Assembly: GCA_043798795.1 (NCBI GenBank)
Contig: JAZDOJ010000052.1
Coordinates: 30,940 to 94,939, forward strand
Reading direction: 5' to 3'
DNA length: 64,000 nt
Origin: Candidatus Omnitrophota bacterium
GTDB taxonomy: Bacteria; Omnitrophota; Gorgyraeia; Gygaellales; Profunditerraquicolaceae
In this document: positions 42,001 to 48,000 of the stretch, one piece after another
How positions within the stretch are numbered: position 1 is the stretch's first letter
Layout of the letters: every line of letters starts with the position of its first letter
Program-made: the position numbers

Positions 42001-45000
42001 CTAAAGCTAAAAAAGGGTCCCGCTCCCTTTTTTTTAGCAGGAGATTTTTATTGATTCATATCTCTTTTGTTGTATAATAAAAATAATATTAACCAAGGAG
42101 GATAGATGCGTCACGCCGTTAGATGTTCTGGTTTTGTTTTATTCCTTATTTTATTTCTTAGCCCATCCGGATTCACTCAGGAAACCCTCACCATTACCAC
42201 CTACTATCCTTCGCCCTACGGCAGTTACAATGAGTTAAGGGCTAATGAGTTAAGGGTCAAGCAGATGACCGTCGGGAGCGCCTATCAGTCAGAAAGCCTA
42301 GCAGACGGAGAGCTGCTTGTCTCCGGAAGCATCGGTATCGGAACCATCACTCCGCGCTCCAAGTTGGAAATCGTTGGCGGCGGTATTCAGATCGACAATG
42401 ATGCAGCTGCCTGCGATGCTACAAAGGCAGGGACCATAAGGTATAATAGCGGCGTATTGGAATATTGTAATTCAAGTAGCTGGTCTTCGTTACAGATTCT
42501 TCAGGGGACTCTGTGCGGTATGGCTGTTGATGGTGTTCAACAAATGTCTTGTTTAGGATTTAACCCTGCGGTGGATTGTCCGTCTGGGTATACATCGTTC
42601 TGTTGGGCTGGAGCAGGGATCACGTCATGTTTTTGTAGCAGGAATTAATTTTTCCGGTGCAGAAAGGAAATACTTAAGGAGATGTTTAAGACAGCGTTTT
42701 TCAGGTATTGAATAGTGCCTGGAATATGCTATACTTATTTTAGAGACTCTAGAGAAGGGGATAGGCAGGTAAAAGCGGCATTATAAAATTTTTTTAAAAA
42801 AAGATAGCAAAAAGAAAGATTTATGACCTATTCTCCCTTTAGAGAATAGGTTTTTTCATTGAGGCCACAACTTACGGAAGCGAGCTCCTTCACTTCGTTC
42901 AGGATCGTCCTGAACATGGAGTGACGAAGGACGAAGCGACGTAAGTTGTATGGCCGAAATAATCCTTGACGCACAAGGTTCGAAGTTTTTTAACATGGAT
43001 TTTGCGTCAAGGATAAAATTCGCACATAAACTTATGTCGTGCTTTCGCACTCCATAAGTTTAGTGCTCATTTTACTTGACAAACAGGAAGGGGGGTGATA
43101 AAATATAAAACTAATTAGAAGGGGACAGACGCAACGGAGAGTTTCGCCTCTTTAATTAAAGCAGAAGTTATAATACATAAATAAAAGAAGAGAGGCCGAA
43201 AAGTTGCGGCTAGTCAATCCACCCTTAGAAAGGAGGCTTTTTTAGAATGAAAAGAAGAGGTTTTACGCTCGTTGAAATTATGATCGTTGTGGCCATCATT
43301 GCTTTATTAGCTGCCATTGCCATACCGAACTTATTGACGGCAAGAAGAACAGCCAACGAAGCAGCAGCCAAAGCTACGGTGCGCAGTTTCTCAACTGCGG
43401 CAGAAACATTCGCGACGTCTCACAGCGGCGTGTATCCGACGGCAGTGGGCGCAGGCGGTTTGCTGGATTTTATCAGTTCAGCGCCTAACTATTGTGCGGA
43501 TGCAGCAGGCGCTGCCACACCCATCCAGGGTTACAATTACAGATGCACCTTGACTGCAGGCGGTTACACTTTTGTGGCTGAGCCGATGACCGTTGGCACC
43601 ACCGGAAACGTCACCTATACAGCGTCTACAGGAGGCGTGGTCACACCTCTGTAAGAGGAGTATGGTTTTTTATGGCGCTGATAAAAAAGGAGGAGAGTCA
43701 AATCTCCTCCTTTTTTATATAGTGTCCCGATAAATAAATGATGATACCGGTTTTAAAAGGGGATAAAACGAAGCGCAGCAGAAAAAAATTATTCATTCTA
43801 AGTTTTATTTTAATCGCGGTCTGCGTTTTTCTTGCCTATTCCAACAGCCTGACCAATCCCTTTATCTGGGATGACGCGGCCTTAGTCGTCGGGAACCCTT
43901 TGATTAAAGAAGGGGCTTCCCTGAAAAAGATATTTACCAGCGACCTCTACTACGGGACAACCACCGGCTCCAATTTTTACCGGCCCCTCCAGACTCTCTC
44001 CTATCGCTTCGATTATTTTTTCTGCCAGTTAGAGCCTAAGGGATACCATCTGACCAATATCTTTTTGCAAAGCCTTGTCTCATGCCTCGCCTTTTTATGG
44101 GCTTATCTTCTTTTGGGAAACCTGCTGGTTGCTCTGGCCGCAAGCCTACTCTTTGCCGTCTGCCCCTTGCACACAGAGGCCGTTACCTATATTTCCGGCA
44201 GGGCTGAGATGCTCATGGGGATATTTTTGTTATCCTCTTTTATTTTGTTTATAAAAAGTGAAAATGCCTCAAAAGGCAAGTTCATTCTTACCCTCTTTTC
44301 TTTGTCATCATTCATCCTGGCCCTGCTATCCAAAGAACTGGCTACTGTTTTTCCCTTTGCGATTTTTTCCTACTCGTTTTATTACGCGAAAGAAAACCAC
44401 AAAAGGTTTGTGTATTTTTTAAAAATCGTCCTGCCGTTTTTTGTCATTTCAGGGGTCTACGTTTTTTTGAGGTTATGGCTTCTAAGGTTCATGACGCTTA
44501 GGCCTGCGGCCTTAACCAGGATCCCTTTTTTGATCAGGATCACGGTTTTTCCCAAGGTCCTCTTGACGTACCTAAAGCTTTTGGTTTTTCCGGTTGACCT
44601 GCACATGTCGCGCGAACTCATCCGGCCGACCTCTTTCATCGGTACCTTTTTTGCCTGGTTTGCCCTTGGGAGTATCGTCGTATGTATCTATTATTGCTTA
44701 CGCAACAAAAAAGGATACAGGAAAGCGCCTTTTTTGCTGTCCTGGTTTTTGATTTTTCTTCTGCCCCAATCCGGTTTATGGCCCATCAACGCCTTTGTCG
44801 CGGAACATTTTTTGTATCTATCCTCCTTAAGTTTTTTTATAGCCGTCGTTGCTTCCCTGTACCGGTTCCTGAGAAAGCCGTTGTTTATTCTGACGGTTGC
44901 CAGCCTTTTGTTTTTCTACGGGATCCTCACCTTCTCGCGCAATTATGAATGGTCAGACCCCGTGGTTTTTTTCCAGCGCATCATCAAATTTTCACCCAGT

Positions 45001-48000
45001 AGTTTTCAGGCACATAATAATTTGGGGTTGCACTATCAGCGCCTCTTCCTTTACGGGCCGGCCATGCTTGAATACAAAAAAGCCTTAGAAATCATGCCGG
45101 ATCTCCTGGAGGCCCGTTCTAATTTGGCGGATCTTTATTTTAAGATGGGACGACTCGAGGATTCCCTAAAAGAATACGCTGTCGTTGAAAAATCAGCGCC
45201 GGGTAGCAAGGCAGGTGAGGTCCAGAATAACATCGCAGCTGTTTATGAGATGCAAAAGGCATGGGATAGAGCCCTTGAGAAATACAGGTTGGCTCTGCGT
45301 TTGGACCCGGACCTGGATTTTACCCATTTTAATCTGGCCAGAATCTACTTTGCGAAAGGTCAAGTTTCTGAAGCAGCTCAAGAGGTTCTGAAGTCCCTTT
45401 CAGGATTAGATCCGAGCGCAGAGGAGGGCCCTCTTTTTCTGGAATGGATTGAGGGGTATCTGGGTTCAGGCAAGCATCATGCTTGCGCCATGACTTTTTA
45501 CAATGACCTGGGCGTGTTGTTTGCCAAGGAAGGGTTTTTTGATGCGGCCATTGTCGCCTTTCGAAAGGCCCTGGAATTAGAGCCGCGCTATAGCGATGCC
45601 CATTTCAATCTGGGTTTGTCTTACTGGAAAAAAGGTCTTAAGGCCAGGGCAGCCCAGGAGTTTAAAGCCACCCTCAAAATAAATCCAGGCCACTTCCAGG
45701 CTAAAGCCATGATAGCCAAAATCAGAAAAGAGAAGGCCCTCTGTAGGATATTCTACTAACTCGCTTGCCTTCAAGCTGTTATCCAGATTCCTTTAAAAGA
45801 TTTCCCTTGTACAAACTTTGCTTTTGTGATAGAATCCACACAGAAAAAATGATGGAAGGCCATGGCGCAAAAAGTTTTGTAACCATTATGATCGCGATTG
45901 CTGTGTCATCGTTAGTCATTCGGATCGTGGTAGGGGCCCTCATCAACATGAATATGGGCCAGAATGAGTCCAATGCCGAAGGGACACTGAAGCTGATCGC
46001 GGCTTCTTTGGAGAATTACGCCAATGACCATCGTGAGAAATATCCCTCTGATTTCTCAGCCTTGACACAGTCAAAACCCCCCTATCTAGATAAAGATTAC
46101 GTTACTCTGTCCTCCCTAAAAGGTTACCTGTACGGTTGCAGAAAGCTTGAGCCTTCTGGATACAATTGTTTTGCCCGCCCCACCCATTGCGGTCTTACGG
46201 GAAGGACGACTTATAGCGTGACTACAGGAAGCCAAGTGGCTTCAGAGAGTTGTCAAAAAAGCGAGTGAGGCTATATTCATGAAGTTTTCTTCTAGGGCCT
46301 TTTCCCTGGTCGAATTAATGGTCGGTGTCATCATTCTCCTGTTTGTTATTTCAGGTTGCCTGATGACTTATATTCACTGTGTCGTGTTAAACGATTCGAG
46401 TCAAAATCTGGCTGTGGCGATTAATGATGCGCAGTATGTCTTAGAGCAGATGAGGAGCTTAGCGTTCGGCAATATCGCTACCTACGTGGCTCCGGTGTTT
46501 AGCAACTTGCCTAGTGAGGCCATCACTTTAAACCGTATCATCGGTGCATCGATGGCAACAATCACCGTTCAAGTGAGTTGGCAGGAGAGGCAGCGTTCGA
46601 GGACCTTCTCCATAACCACCTACGTGGCGAAATGATATGAAAAAATACTTATTTTCGAGTAAAGGATTCACCCTTGTGGAGGTCTTCTGTTCCGCTATCG
46701 TCATCAGTTTTATTGTCGGGGTTCTTTTTTATGCCTTAAGTAGCGGGGAGTATTCCCGGTCTGTCAGCGCCGCTAAAATCGATGTGCAGTCCGAGGTCAG
46801 GCGGAGCATGGATTGGATTACGAGGGATGTGCGTCAGGCTGTCAGTTGGGATATTGCGGACGCCAGTAACAGCCCGTCGGATACGCACATAAAATTCAGG
46901 CGGGTTGAGGGCTGGAATTTGACCTCAGACTTACTGCTTTTAAGCACTAATTTTACCGAATACACGTATGATTCGAGCAACTATACGGTTACACGCAGGA
47001 TGAGCGATTCAAGCAATAATACGATTCAGACGTGGATTCTCAACAATATCCAACAAGCCCCCTTTTATACCTTGGACGGTTCGGGCGGCATTGTTTCCCT
47101 GAATGGCGGGGACCTGCTCACCAGCAGAAAACTCATCGTCCTTATTAACGGGAGCAAGCCAATCAAGGGTTCTTTAAACGCCACATCTGTTCTTACTGAG
47201 GAGGTGAAGATAAGAAATGAATAAACATAAAGGAATCGTTTTGATTTTTTCTCTCATGGTCATGCTCGTGCTTTCCATTTTATTGGCTTCCTTTTATTTT
47301 CAAAGCGCTAACGAAGGAAAGCAGGCTTTGGTCTTTGAGAATTCAACGCGCGCTTTTTGGCTGGCCGAGGCAGGAGTGGCCCAAGCCTTAAGCACTTTTA
47401 GCGGGCCGACCACCTTAAGCGGCTTTATTGACGATGCCAACCATACCTACAGCGTGCAGGTGAATCTTCTCTCAGGCGTATATTATACCATCGTCTCAAC
47501 CGGAACAGTGACCTCCCCGGCCACGGGAACGATCTCAAGGACGATAAGTGCGACGGTAAAGACAGGGGTGGTGGACCCCCTGAAATTTAAATACGGGATT
47601 GAGACAACCACAGACCTTGTCGTGAAGGGGAGCGTCGATATTAATCCGGATGACAGCTGGAATGAATACTCGACGCTTGATTTTGCGGACCTCTTCGGTA
47701 TCACAAAGGCCGAGATGAAGGATAATGCCACGCATCTTTACACGGACGACACTTTTGAGGGTCAGCCGGTGGATGGGATCACCTGGGTTGATGTCGATGG
47801 CTCCATGAACATAGCGGGTAATCTGGCTGGCAGCGGCATCCTCGTCATTAACGGGGATGTGCATTTTTCCGGGACCGTTGATTTTAACGGCATCATCTAT
47901 GTTATCGGCGAGTTGACCATTACAGGGACTGTGAACACTTACGGATCGGTTCTGGCGGAGAGCAGCACCACGGTGGATACGGAACTTAAAGGAAACGTGG

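What the first reader, a model, noticed from the sequence alone, without database searches (positions are those of the whole stretch)
43738..45759. GT-C/TPR fusion directly downstream of pilA: candidate pilin O-glycosyltransferase
The 673-aa ORF has a polytopic N-terminal domain (WDDAALVVGNP motif in the first periplasmic loop, >8 TM helices) resembling PMT/TMTC-type GT-C glycosyltransferases, and a C-terminal TPR array. Its position immediately after the major pilin gene mirrors the pilA-tfpO arrangement in Pseudomonas, where TfpO glycosylates pilin. Elsewhere in the window a polyprenyl-P-sugar synthase-type GT2 (14534-15295) overlaps a GT-C membrane gene (15273-16487), which could supply the lipid-linked donor.
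Basis: inference. Interest (0 to 1): 0.55.

Follow-up and report, generated by a model that had tools for sequence, protein, structure and literature searches.

The report
Pilin-linked TMTC-like glycosyltransferase gene
Directly after the main pilus-subunit gene, this uncultured Omnitrophota bacterium encodes a membrane sugar-transferase fused to a protein-binding repeat domain; it most likely attaches sugars to the pilus subunit, as the known enzyme TfpW does in Pseudomonas, so it is a solid but unsurprising candidate.

Summary
ORF 43738-45759 (673 aa) has an N-terminal ~405-aa polytopic domain and a C-terminal TPR array, and starts 83 nt after a 135-aa type IV pilin gene. No profile library recognises the membrane domain. 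An AlphaFold model of it (pLDDT 85) matches only GT-C enzymes in the PDB (STT3, AglB, PglB, Pmt1/2/4, ArnT, ALG9, DPY19, Emb/Aft). Its invariant residues reproduce parts of all seven published TMTC motifs, at TMTC-like spacing for five of six intervals. Differences: the M7 Arg is an invariant His, M2 lacks His-Lys, M5 is an invariant His instead of DW, and the EL4 loop is shorter.

The order pilin, terminator hairpin, this gene, minor pilins, pilMNOPQ recurs in 32 of 37 Omnitrophota orthologues and 10 of 18 distant relatives (mostly Verrucomicrobiota), but only 2 of 16 members of a paralogous clade.

The closest characterised analogue is P. aeruginosa TfpW (GT-C, 11 TM, DDX in loop 1, periplasmic TPR, directly after pilA), not TfpO, which is Wzy_C-type. 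The best reading is a pilin O-glycosyltransferase using a polyprenyl-phosphate sugar. Acceptor and sugar are inferred, not shown. The proposed GT2 donor link is unsupported. It is a new member of a known kind, of moderate interest.

The parts
43076..43104 (+). sigma-70-like promoter candidate upstream of pilA (TTGACA-17-TAAAAT with an extended -10 TG)
   Evidence: 11 of 12 consensus match, the best in the region. This is a consensus match only.
43247..43654 (+). type IV major pilin candidate (pilA): 135-aa prepilin, 130-aa mature, two Cys, 20% Ser+Thr, C-terminal tail TYTASTGGVVTPL
   Evidence: N_methyl E 8e-9; PilA_Myxo, ComGC and GspG N-terminal matches. In 35 orthologous pilins, S122, T123 and T128 are 100% Ser/Thr and T120 is 97%.
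43689..43716 (+). Rho-independent terminator/attenuator-like hairpin (GGAGGAGA-gtcaaa-TCTCCTCC) plus a U6 run, between pilA and the glycosyltransferase gene
   Evidence: Spacer MFE -32.8 kcal/mol, z -6.5, 0 of 200 shuffles as stable. Equivalent hairpins occur in related loci. Hairpin plus U-run found in 29 of 51 spacers against 7 of 72 controls.
43738..44952 (+). GT-C (TMTC-like) membrane glycosyltransferase domain, residues 1-405: 11 TM, N-terminus cytoplasmic
   Evidence: AlphaFold pLDDT 85.4, pTM 0.88. Foldseek ranks 1-34 are all GT-C enzymes. TMTC motif mapping. hhalign against the window's PMT_2 protein gives 69.6% probability, E 4.2e-5.
43870..43875 (+). codons for D45-D46, the putative catalytic/metal-binding DD motif in periplasmic loop 1
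   Evidence: Invariant in 34 of 34 aligned proteins and 137 of 140 deep representatives. Equivalent to TMTC motif M1 and the essential DDX motif of TfpW.
44953..45759 (+). C-terminal TPR domain (about 7-8 repeats), predicted periplasmic, plus the stop codon
   Evidence: Pfam TPR families at E 1e-27 to 1e-13. Full-length model matches the OGT, SPY and consensus TPR superhelices. Periplasmic location is inferred from the odd TM count and the positive-inside rule.
45765..48089 (+). four small ORFs downstream (167, 118, 195, 290 aa), read as minor pilins; two have a detectable N_methyl signal
   Evidence: N_methyl E 4.8e-5 for the 118-aa ORF and a weak 0.057 for the 195-aa ORF; no hit for the 167-aa ORF. 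The 290-aa orthologue in L001 carries a weak PilX_N hit.
48086..52495 (+). pilM-N-O-P-Q assembly and secretin genes
   Evidence: PilM_2 E 2e-46, PilO 9e-8, Secretin 3e-46. The 191-aa and 142-aa ORFs have no family hit and are called pilN and pilP from position only. The same gene order is found in L001, L002 and L004.
14534..15295 (+). GT2 of the polyprenyl-phosphate-hexose synthase class; a possible but unlinked supplier of the lipid-linked donor
   Evidence: Glycos_transf_2 E 1.2e-23. Best NCBIfam resemblances are AglJ, Dol-P-hexose transferase, PpgS and ArnC, all below cut-off. No synteny with the pilus locus.

Best explanation
The gene encodes an inner-membrane, TfpW-like/TMTC-like GT-C glycosyltransferase dedicated to the type IV pilin encoded just upstream.

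Shown: (1) the GT-C fold; (2) an intact, family-wide conserved set of acidic, basic and His residues; (3) the TPR array; (4) a conserved pilin - terminator hairpin - enzyme - minor pilins - pilMNOPQ cassette.

Inferred mechanism:
1. The protein has 11 TM helices, a cytoplasmic N-terminus and all conserved polar motifs on the periplasmic face.
2. A polyprenyl-phosphate-linked sugar is made on the cytoplasmic face by a GT2-type synthase and flipped. It binds in the groove formed by K199/E200, H289 and E356/H357.
3. D45/D46 in loop 1 act as catalytic base and metal ligand.
4. The periplasmic TPR superhelix captures the globular domain or the Thr/Ser-rich C-terminal tail of the pilin while the pilin is still anchored in the inner membrane by its N-terminal helix.
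5. Sugar is transferred to Ser/Thr hydroxyls before the subunit is polymerised.
6. The hairpin after pilA keeps enzyme expression well below pilin expression.

The sugar identity is unknown. Whether transfer is of a monosaccharide or en bloc is also unknown.
For: Fold: the model of residues 1-405 (pLDDT 85.4, pTM 0.88) matches only GT-C enzymes at Foldseek ranks 1-34. These include STT3, AglB, PglB, Pmt1/2/4, ArnT, ALG9/3, DPY19, AftA/D and EmbA/B, with TMq 0.34-0.57 (0.40-0.57 for the best 26). Scores then drop to noise at about 0.13.

Motifs: D45 D46, Y81 R82 P83, R155-x-D/E157, K199 E200, H289 and E356-H357-x-x-Y360 are invariant or nearly so in 34 orthologues and 140 deep representatives. 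They correspond to published TMTC motifs M1-M7. Spacings for this protein/TMTC3/TMTC1 are 36/39/40, 74/73/75, 44/45/52, 54/58/59 and 13/14/14. TMTC3's TM3 segment matches at 10 of 17 residues, with 0 of 2000 shuffles as good.

Sequence link to GT-C: PMT_2 or PMT hits in 3 of 23 family members. hhalign against the window's PMT_2 protein gives E 4.2e-5 and aligns FIWDD with ILADE and SKEL with MKET.

Context: a prepilin ORF ends 600 bp or less upstream in 32 of 37 orthologues at >=48% identity, 4 of 5 at 39-42%, and 10 of 18 distant, mostly Verrucomicrobiota relatives. The figure is 2 of 16 in a paralogous clade. The detector's false-positive rate is 2 in 1830.

Cassette: a terminator-like hairpin is found in 29 of 51 pilin-enzyme spacers against 7 of 72 controls. 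This is a described hallmark of pilin-accessory gene cassettes.

Precedent: TfpW has the same size, topology, DDX motif, TPR domain and position, and is required for pilin glycosylation.

Acceptor plausibility: the linked pilins keep Ser/Thr at 18 positions, clustered in a conserved C-terminal tail.
Against: There is no experimental or proteomic evidence that these pilins are glycosylated.

No Pfam, NCBIfam or PDB-sequence profile recognises this protein's membrane domain, even at E 10. Foldseek E-values are modest, 8e-4 at best.

The phosphate-binding Arg of TMTC/STT3 motif M7 is His here, and the His-Lys pair of M2 is absent. Donor chemistry may therefore differ, or the analogy may be imperfect.

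No donor-synthesis genes are linked to the locus. No D-Araf pathway genes were seen among the window ORFs scanned.

The superfamily is huge, with 98,159 cluster representatives, and many members are not pilin-linked. Function cannot be transferred from family membership alone.

Conserved Ser/Thr in the pilin tail could be purely structural.

Sequence homology to TfpW could not be tested.
Confidence: 0.6

Rival explanations
1. It is an active GT-C glycosyltransferase, but its acceptor is not the major pilin. It would modify other periplasmic or pilus-machine proteins (minor pilins, PilQ) or act as a general O-glycosylase, and would be merely co-transcribed with the pilus genes.
For: The superfamily is very large and many members, including an Omnitrophota paralogue clade, are not pilin-linked. 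Minor-pilin-like genes lie immediately downstream. TMTC relatives act on several substrates (abstracts).
Against: The gene sits specifically between the major pilin gene and the rest of the cluster in two phyla, even where the flanking genes differ. The pilin-terminator-accessory arrangement is typical of pilin-specific accessory genes.
Confidence: 0.17
2. Its main role is structural. It would be a membrane-anchored TPR accessory factor for pilus assembly or secretin piloting (PilF/PilW/Tgl-like, or TfpY-like chaperone), with the GT-C-like domain serving as an anchor or being catalytically irrelevant.
For: The TPR region gives sub-threshold matches to Tgl (6e-20, 71.6 bits against a cut-off of 225) and PilW (3e-15). 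No separate pilotin-type TPR lipoprotein is present in the pilMNOPQ cluster of the window. Non-enzymatic pilin accessory proteins are known.
Against: Those matches are generic TPR similarity well below the cut-offs. The predicted catalytic and donor-binding residues are invariant across hundreds of sequences and deep representatives, which implies selection for catalysis. One related locus (L006) carries a separate 323-aa TPR protein as well as this enzyme.
Confidence: 0.1
3. It transfers sugar to a non-protein acceptor (lipid A or another lipid, as ArnT does, or a glycan chain, as Emb/Aft do) and is linked to pili only through regulation.
For: ArnT, EmbA/B and AftA/D are among the structural matches. 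TfpW itself is proposed to polymerise arabinan as well as transfer it.
Against: The characterised GT-C enzymes with C-terminal TPR domains read about here (TMTC1-4, TfpW) act on protein acceptors. The pilin linkage is conserved. No polysaccharide or LPS genes are in the locus.
Confidence: 0.07

Closest known systems
TfpW of Pseudomonas aeruginosa group IV strains (Pa5196, PA7): GT-C pilin arabinosyltransferase/oligosaccharyltransferase
   Same: It is encoded immediately downstream of pilA. It is similar in size (646 against 673 aa), with a cytoplasmic N-terminus, 11 predicted TM helices and an essential DDX motif in periplasmic loop 1. It has a large periplasmic C-terminal TPR domain whose best model is the OGT TPR, and an ArnT-like GT-C membrane domain. 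The pilin-accessory cassette carries a terminator after the pilin gene (searches compared).
   Different: It comes from a different phylum. TfpW's proline-rich motif YX6PFX7P is only partly present (Y-x7-P233-F234, with no terminal Pro and the Tyr not conserved). No D-arabinofuranose pathway genes (DprE1/2 etc.) were seen among the window ORFs scanned, so the sugar is probably different.
Eukaryotic TMTC1-4 (GT-C/PMT clan O-mannosyltransferases of cadherins)
   Same: The architecture is the same: 11 TM, N-terminus cytoplasmic, C-terminal TPR on the non-cytoplasmic side. Motif equivalents M1 DD, the YRP part of M2, M3 RxD/E, the KE part of M4 and the E..Y part of M7 occur at nearly identical spacing. 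The TM3 segment ASLLFAVxPxHT is nearly identical. EL4 carries an interfacial helix rather than a TM helix.
   Different: Pfam DUF1736 does not hit and EL4 is about 20-25 residues shorter. The M7 Arg is an invariant His. M2 lacks the His-Lys pair. M5 DW is replaced by (D/N/G)-L-H-M. The M4 Thr is absent. The organism is bacterial, the donor would be a bacterial polyprenyl phosphate rather than Dol-P-Man, and the acceptor would be a pilin.
TfpO/PilO (P. aeruginosa group I) and PglL: pilin O-oligosaccharyltransferases
   Same: TfpO is encoded directly after pilA in a pilin-accessory cassette and glycosylates the pilin.
   Different: It is an unrelated protein family. By established knowledge it is Wzy_C/O-antigen-ligase-like, has no TPR domain and transfers undecaprenyl-PP-linked O-antigen units en bloc. 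The ORF here has no Wzy_C hit at any threshold and no WaaL/PglL structural match.
PMT/POMT, ArnT and STT3/PglB/AglB (structurally solved GT-C enzymes)
   Same: They share the membrane fold (TMq 0.40-0.57) and the position of the acidic catalytic pair directly after TM1.
   Different: Identity is only 11-15%. They lack TPR domains and have MIR or periplasmic alpha/beta domains instead. Their acceptors differ. Pfam PMT_2 and PMT are hit by only 3 of 23 family members, and not by this protein.

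Membership tests
GT-C fold glycosyltransferases (lipid-phosphate-sugar dependent) | Polytopic membrane fold shared with solved GT-C enzymes | tested here: met
   Foldseek of the 405-aa model: ranks 1-34 are exclusively GT-C enzymes (STT3, AglB, PglB, Pmt, ArnT, ALG9/3, DPY19, Emb/Aft). Probability is about 1.0 for the top 27 and 0.90-0.97 for ranks 28-34; TMq 0.34-0.57. Scores then fall to noise.
GT-C fold glycosyltransferases (lipid-phosphate-sugar dependent) | Conserved acidic residue(s) at the start of the first extracytoplasmic loop | tested here: met
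   D45 and D46 lie 6-7 residues after TM1. They are invariant in 34 of 34 orthologues and 137 of 140 deep representatives. They align with the DE pair of the window's PMT_2 protein.
GT-C fold glycosyltransferases (lipid-phosphate-sugar dependent) | Recognised by a curated GT-C sequence model (Pfam PMT_2, PMT, GT87 etc.) | tested here: not met
   The membrane domain gives 0 Pfam families at E<=10. NCBIfam gives only one chance-level hit (Na+/H+ antiporter subunit, E 0.53). Only 2 of 23 family members hit PMT_2 (best 1.7e-7) and 1 of 23 hits PMT. Profile-profile comparison with a PMT_2 protein gives 69.6% probability, E 4.2e-5.
TMTC family (GT-C/PMT clan, TPR-containing O-mannosyltransferases) | 11 TM, cytoplasmic N-terminus, C-terminal TPR domain on the non-cytoplasmic side | tested here: met
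   12 long hydrophobic helices in the model, of which helix 264-283 is amphipathic. K/R-rich loops at residues 1-17, 211-229, 318-331 and 376-381 fix an N-in, C-out topology with 11 TM helices. TPR. This is prediction only, with no experimental topology.
TMTC family (GT-C/PMT clan, TPR-containing O-mannosyltransferases) | Seven conserved motifs M1-M7 (DD, SHKSYRP, RxD, KE(T/Q)xxT, DW, PxxP, ERxxY) | tested here: inconclusive
   Present: M1 DD, the YRP of M2, M3 RxD/E, the KE of M4, and E..Y of M7, at matching spacing. Changed: H,K of M2 become N,F; the M4 Thr is lost; M5 DW becomes x-L-H-M; M6 spacing differs; the M7 Arg becomes an invariant His.
TMTC family (GT-C/PMT clan, TPR-containing O-mannosyltransferases) | Pfam DUF1736 hit in the EL4 loop (E<1e-30 in human TMTCs) | tested here: not met
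   No DUF1736 hit in this protein or in any of the 23 members scanned. The EL4 interval is 90 residues against 115 and 111 in TMTC3 and TMTC1.
TfpW-type pilin glycosyltransferase cassette | [quoted passage not shown] | tested here: met
   83-nt spacer containing a hairpin plus U-run. The linkage is conserved in 32 of 37 orthologues. Hairpin found in 29 of 51 spacers against 7 of 72 controls.
TfpW-type pilin glycosyltransferase cassette | GT-C membrane domain with DDX in periplasmic loop 1, plus a periplasmic C-terminal TPR domain | tested here: met
   compared with the description of TfpW.
TfpW-type pilin glycosyltransferase cassette | Proline-rich motif YX6PFX7P | tested here: not met
   Only P233-F234 are conserved. 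Tyr225 lies seven residues upstream rather than six and is not conserved, and no Pro follows after seven residues (sequence; conservation).
TfpW-type pilin glycosyltransferase cassette | Sequence homology to TfpW (AAM52060.1) | not testable with these tools
   The TfpW sequence is not obtainable here. Kus et al. 2008 is not held.
TfpW-type pilin glycosyltransferase cassette | Pilin is actually glycosylated in a gene-dependent manner | not testable with these tools
   This needs mass spectrometry or genetics. The organism is uncultured.
TfpO/PilO/PglL O-oligosaccharyltransferases | Wzy_C (O-antigen ligase-like) domain | tested here: not met
   No Pfam hit of any kind in residues 1-409 at E<=10. 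No WaaL, PglL or Wzy structure appears among the significant Foldseek matches.

The most novel reading that the evidence does not exclude
The pilin-linked clade would show that bacterial TMTC-type GT-C/TPR enzymes are dedicated type IV pilin O-glycosyltransferases across Omnitrophota and Verrucomicrobiota. They would use a donor-binding site with His in place of the canonical phosphate-binding Arg. This would give the first functional handle on a bacterial family of about 10^5 sequence clusters that curated profile libraries currently miss. It would also suggest that the eukaryotic cadherin O-mannosyltransferases (TMTC1-4) and TfpW descend from such adhesin- or pilin-modifying enzymes.
Probability: 0.3. 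Interest if true: 0.6.

Novelty: new member of a known kind. Interest (0 to 1): 0.4.

Why it matters
If the inference is right, pilin glycosylation by a GT-C/TPR enzyme is not confined to a few Proteobacteria (TfpW). It would be a conserved feature of the type IV pili of Omnitrophota, a phylum of tiny, uncultured and possibly host-dependent bacteria, and of some Verrucomicrobiota. In Pseudomonas, pilin glycans affect pilin folding, stability and assembly and protect against pilus-specific phages.

There is also a practical annotation point. The enzyme domain is invisible to Pfam, NCBIfam and PDB-sequence profiles, and GenBank calls the protein only 'tetratricopeptide repeat protein'. Yet a profile of it finds about 98,000 cluster representatives. 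The TMTC-like motif map given here could seed a proper family model. It also singles out the invariant His that replaces the canonical Arg as a residue worth testing.

Tried and rejected
1. Pfam, NCBIfam and PDB-sequence searches of the membrane domain, alone and as a 23-sequence profile, found nothing usable.

2. Foldseek with the full-length model was swamped by TPR proteins. I re-modelled the membrane domain alone.

3. The look-up of encoding contigs on three window proteins, including P0001, returned 'not on record'.

4. TfpW sequence homology: Kus et al. 2008 is not held and no collection available here gave access to the TfpW sequence. This was left untested.

5. A tblastn search of the plasmid collection for named relatives gave one weak archaeal hit annotated as hypothetical.

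6. A first motif tabulation was mis-numbered because hmmalign --trim shifted the query. It was discarded and redone.

7. A Wzy/O-antigen-ligase identity was considered and rejected.

8. A paralogue of the domain elsewhere in the window was looked for and not found by BLAST or phmmer. The second GT-C at 15264 is related only at profile level.

9. A D-Araf (TfpW-type) donor pathway was looked for among the window ORFs scanned and not seen.

Full report
**Observation**

Its translation contains PFIWDDAALVVGNP at residues 41-54. The C-terminal approximately 265 residues are an unambiguous TPR array (TPR_2 E 1.6e-27, TPR_11 3.6e-26, TPR_1 2.5e-23).

The ORF 83 nt upstream (43247..43654) is a 135-aa type IV prepilin with a canonical leader and cleavage site, MKRRG|FTLVEIMIVVAII (N_methyl E 8e-9). 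Downstream lie four small ORFs, two of which have a detectable prepilin-type N-terminus. They are followed by pilM, a putative pilN, pilO, a putative pilP, and a pilQ secretin.

The protein is 100% identical to a GenBank protein from a Candidatus Omnitrophota MAG that is annotated only as 'tetratricopeptide repeat protein'.

**What the N-terminal domain is**

Sequence profiles fail. Residues 1-409 give no Pfam family at E<=10, one chance-level NCBIfam hit, and nothing meaningful against PDB sequences, either alone or as a 23-sequence profile. Only 2 of 23 diverse family members reach PMT_2 (best E 1.7e-7) and 1 of 23 reaches PMT.

Structure settles the question. An AlphaFold model of the domain built on alignment A1 has pLDDT 85.4 and pTM 0.88. 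In a Foldseek search of the PDB, ranks 1-34 are exclusively GT-C-fold, lipid-linked-sugar glycosyltransferases:
- STT3/OST, AglB and PglB
- Pmt1/2/4 and ArnT
- ALG9, ALG3 and DPY19
- AftA, AftD and EmbA/B

TMq is 0.34-0.57 (0.40-0.57 for the best 26). After these hits the list collapses to GPCRs and transporters at TMq of about 0.13. No Wzy, WaaL or PglL-type protein appears among the significant matches.

A profile-profile comparison with the window's own PMT_2-family protein (15264-16487) gives 69.6% probability and E 4.2e-5 over 207 columns. It aligns FIWDD with ILADE and SKEL with MKET.

**TMTC-like motif set**

A published analysis of human TMTC1-4 (PMC7801869) defines the family as follows:
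- 11 TM helices, a cytoplasmic N-terminus and a lumenal TPR domain
- an EL4 loop (Pfam DUF1736) that contains an interfacial, non-membrane helix
- seven motifs, M1-M7

Mapping these onto 34 orthologues and 140 deep representatives gives:

| TMTC motif | Equivalent here | Conservation in 140 deep representatives |
|---|---|---|
| M1 DD | D45 D46 | 137 |
| M2 SHKSYRP | G-S-N-F-Y81-R82-P83 | YRP in 133-139; His-Lys absent |
| M3 RxD | R155-x-D/E157 | R in 136; D in 129 |
| M4 KE(T/Q)xxT | K199 E200 | K or R in 139; E in 139; Thr absent |
| M5 DW | (D/N/G)-L288-H289-M290 | H in 131 |
| M6 PxxP | P343...P349 | spacing differs |
| M7 ERxxY | E356-H357-[WF]-x-Y360 | H in 134; Y in 140 |

Inter-motif spacings for this protein, TMTC3 and TMTC1 are 36/39/40, 74/73/75, 44/45/52, 90/115/111, 54/58/59 and 13/14/14. 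Only the EL4 loop differs, which explains why DUF1736 does not hit.

The TMTC3 TM3 segment printed in that paper, KSSVIASLLFAVHPIHT, matches LVALAASLLFAVCPLHT at 10 of 17 positions, and 0 of 2000 shuffles do as well.

The domain is therefore a bacterial TMTC-like GT-C enzyme with an intact but modified catalytic and donor-binding set. The most notable change is that the Arg which contacts the lipid-carrier phosphate in TMTC, STT3 and PglB is an invariant His.

**Topology (inferred)**

K/R-rich segments at residues 1-17 (7 K/R), 211-229 (4), 318-331 (5) and 376-381 (3) mark the cytoplasmic side. The model has 12 long hydrophobic helices. The amphipathic helix 264-283 must be interfacial, like JM3 of TMTC, for all four K/R-rich loops to lie on the same side.

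This gives 11 TM helices, N-in and C-out. Loop 1, all the conserved polar motifs and the TPR domain would then be periplasmic, as shown experimentally for loop 1 and the C-terminal domain of TfpW.

**Context conservation**

Three orthologue loci at 52-70% identity, from independent MAGs, have the same order: pilin, this gene, small pilin-like ORFs, pilMNOPQ. In L004 this holds even though the upstream genes differ.

A scan of one genome per species returned 80 loci. They were selected by the motifs PFIWDD and SNFYRPxQ, so selection was independent of context. A prepilin ORF ends within 600 bp upstream, on the same strand, at these rates:

| Identity to query | Loci with an upstream prepilin ORF |
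|---|---|
| >=48% | 32 of 37 |
| 39-42% | 4 of 5 |
| 32-38% (paralogous clade) | 2 of 16 |
| <=31% (mostly Chthoniobacterales/Verrucomicrobiota) | 10 of 18 |

Many of the distant pilin-linked loci also carry a second pilin directly downstream. The detector fires on 2 of 1830 reversed sequences.

A more distant metagenomic member follows four tandem pilin genes. Another is not pilin-linked. Pilin linkage is thus a property of particular clades within a very large superfamily: 98,159 cluster representatives at E<=1e-3 and 12,451 at E<=1e-30.

**Cassette signature**

The pilA-ORF spacer folds into a GGAGGAGA/TCTCCTCC hairpin followed by U6. MFE is -32.8 kcal/mol, z is -6.5, and 0 of 200 shuffles fold as well. 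Related loci have equivalent hairpins. A crude detector finds a hairpin plus U-run in 29 of 51 pilin-enzyme spacers against 7 of 72 control regions.

A Rho-independent terminator after the pilin gene, attenuating the accessory gene, is described as a common feature of pilin-accessory cassettes (PMC11841053).

**Closest characterised analogue**

TfpW of P. aeruginosa group IV strains has these features (bioRxiv 10.1101/2020.04.19.049825):
- an essential DDX motif in periplasmic loop 1
- a large periplasmic C-terminal TPR domain
- best modelled on ArnT
- encoded immediately downstream of pilA
- required for O-glycosylation of pilin with D-arabinofuranose oligomers

That is the same architecture and the same position. 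TfpO and TfpW are described as unrelated glycosyltransferases. By established knowledge, TfpO, PilO and PglL are Wzy_C-type O-oligosaccharyltransferases. No such match exists in any case.

**Acceptor**

The 35 Omnitrophota pilins that precede orthologues are 121-135 aa when mature and 16-27% Ser+Thr. They end in a conserved tail...TTGsvTYTA[ST]TGGVLTPL. Ser/Thr is kept in at least 80% of them at 18 positions. S122, T123 and T128 are at 100% and T120 at 97%. This is compatible with O-glycosylation but could equally be structural.

**Donor**

The GT2 at 14534-15295 resembles polyprenyl-phosphate-hexose synthases: AglJ 5e-20, Dol-P-hexose transferase 2e-19, PpgS 6e-17 and ArnC 3e-6, all below the equivalog cut-offs. 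It overlaps a PMT_2 GT-C gene.

That pair lies among dapA/dapB/dapL, folK, panC, nadX and uvrA, about 28 kb from the pilus locus. It probably serves its own GT-C partner. It could also feed this enzyme, but nothing links the two. No D-Araf pathway genes were seen among the window ORFs scanned.

**Verdict**

The feature is real, and the core interpretation is supported. The best explanation (confidence about 0.6) is a TfpW-like, TMTC-type pilin O-glycosyltransferase that uses a polyprenyl-phosphate sugar at the periplasmic face, with the TPR domain recruiting the membrane-anchored pilin.

Shown:
- the GT-C fold
- the conserved motif set
- the TPR array
- the conserved pilin cassette

Inferred:
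- the topology
- the donor class
- the pilin as acceptor
- Ser/Thr as the modified residues

Rivals are a different protein acceptor (0.17), a mainly structural or pilotin role (0.10), and a non-protein acceptor (0.07). Because TfpW already establishes this kind of system, I rate it a new member of a known kind, with interest 0.4.

Noticed in passing
window 24350-34283: A second, separate type IV pilus/T2SS-like gene cluster. It has a 539-aa PilM-PilN fusion (25127-26746), PilO (26754), a second secretin (27737-29401), a T2SSE ATPase with an MshEN domain (29404-31125), a T2SSF platform protein (31125-32354) and pseudopilins (32484 onward). The pilA-pilMNOPQ cluster at 43-52 kb has no ATPase or platform gene of its own in the window.
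   Followed up: partly
L045, L047-L061 (Omnitrophota and others, 32-38% identity to the query): A paralogous clade with the same GT-C/TPR architecture keeps the DD, YRP, KE and EH..Y motifs but is almost never pilin-linked (2 of 16). This suggests other acceptors for sister clades.
   Followed up: partly
L062, L065, L070, L077-L079, L084-L086 (Chthoniobacterales/Verrucomicrobiota): These distant relatives (26-35% identity) sit between two pilin genes: about 130 aa upstream and 125 aa downstream. The upstream pilins have no Cys and end in ...DVIDxxSSFWGAYYQ. In these enzymes H289 is replaced by Phe, and T146-E147 by Ser-Ala.
   Followed up: partly
window 43738-44952, residue H357 (and the 140 deep representatives): The Arg of the E-R-x-x-Y motif, which contacts the lipid-carrier phosphate in TMTC, STT3 and PglB, is an invariant His (E-H-[WF]-x-Y) throughout this bacterial family. 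This may signal a different donor head-group or a pH- or metal-dependent contact.
   Followed up: partly
window 43738-44952 and family-wide: There is an annotation gap. A profile of this domain finds 98,159 cluster representatives at E<=1e-3, yet Pfam, NCBIfam and PDB-sequence profiles do not recognise this protein. GenBank names it only 'tetratricopeptide repeat protein'; JGI names some relatives 'protein O-mannosyl-transferase'.
   Followed up: yes
window 19341-21914: An 857-aa all-TPR protein with seven matched stretches to the YbgF/CpoB model (E 6e-81), directly upstream of tolQ (21957) and tolR/exbD (22603). It is an unusually long CpoB-like Tol-Pal component.
   Followed up: no
window 37303-39349: A GT4 (TuaH-like) and GT2 (EpsD-like) gene pair lies between Memo/AMMECR1 and the DsbD_2-like gene. 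In the closest related locus (L001) those two flanking genes are adjacent, so the glycosyltransferase pair looks like an insertion specific to this genome.
   Followed up: partly
window 42106-42648: A 180-aa ORF with an N-terminal signal-like hydrophobic segment and a Cys-rich C-terminus lies just upstream of pilA and has no hit in Pfam or NCBIfam. The equivalent position holds a 398-aa unknown ORF in L001 and nothing in L002.
   Followed up: no
L002 5918-5986 (pilin-enzyme spacer): Besides the terminator hairpin, this spacer carries a second long, near-perfect nested hairpin (whole-spacer MFE -68.9 kcal/mol, z -10). It may be a small repeat element or a second regulatory structure.
   Followed up: no
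whole window 1-64000: Every identified gene is on the + strand, and GC skew is positive in all but one 2-kb bin (44001-46000). This fits a long co-directional stretch on the leading strand. The one negative-skew, strongly T-rich bin is the membrane-domain coding region itself.
   Followed up: no
plasmid NZ_CP085304.1 223306-223647 (Haladaptatus pallidirubidus): This is the only hit in 72,556 plasmids: an archaeal hypothetical protein 37% identical over residues 64-176 (the YRP to RxD region). It hints that the family reaches into haloarchaea.
   Followed up: no
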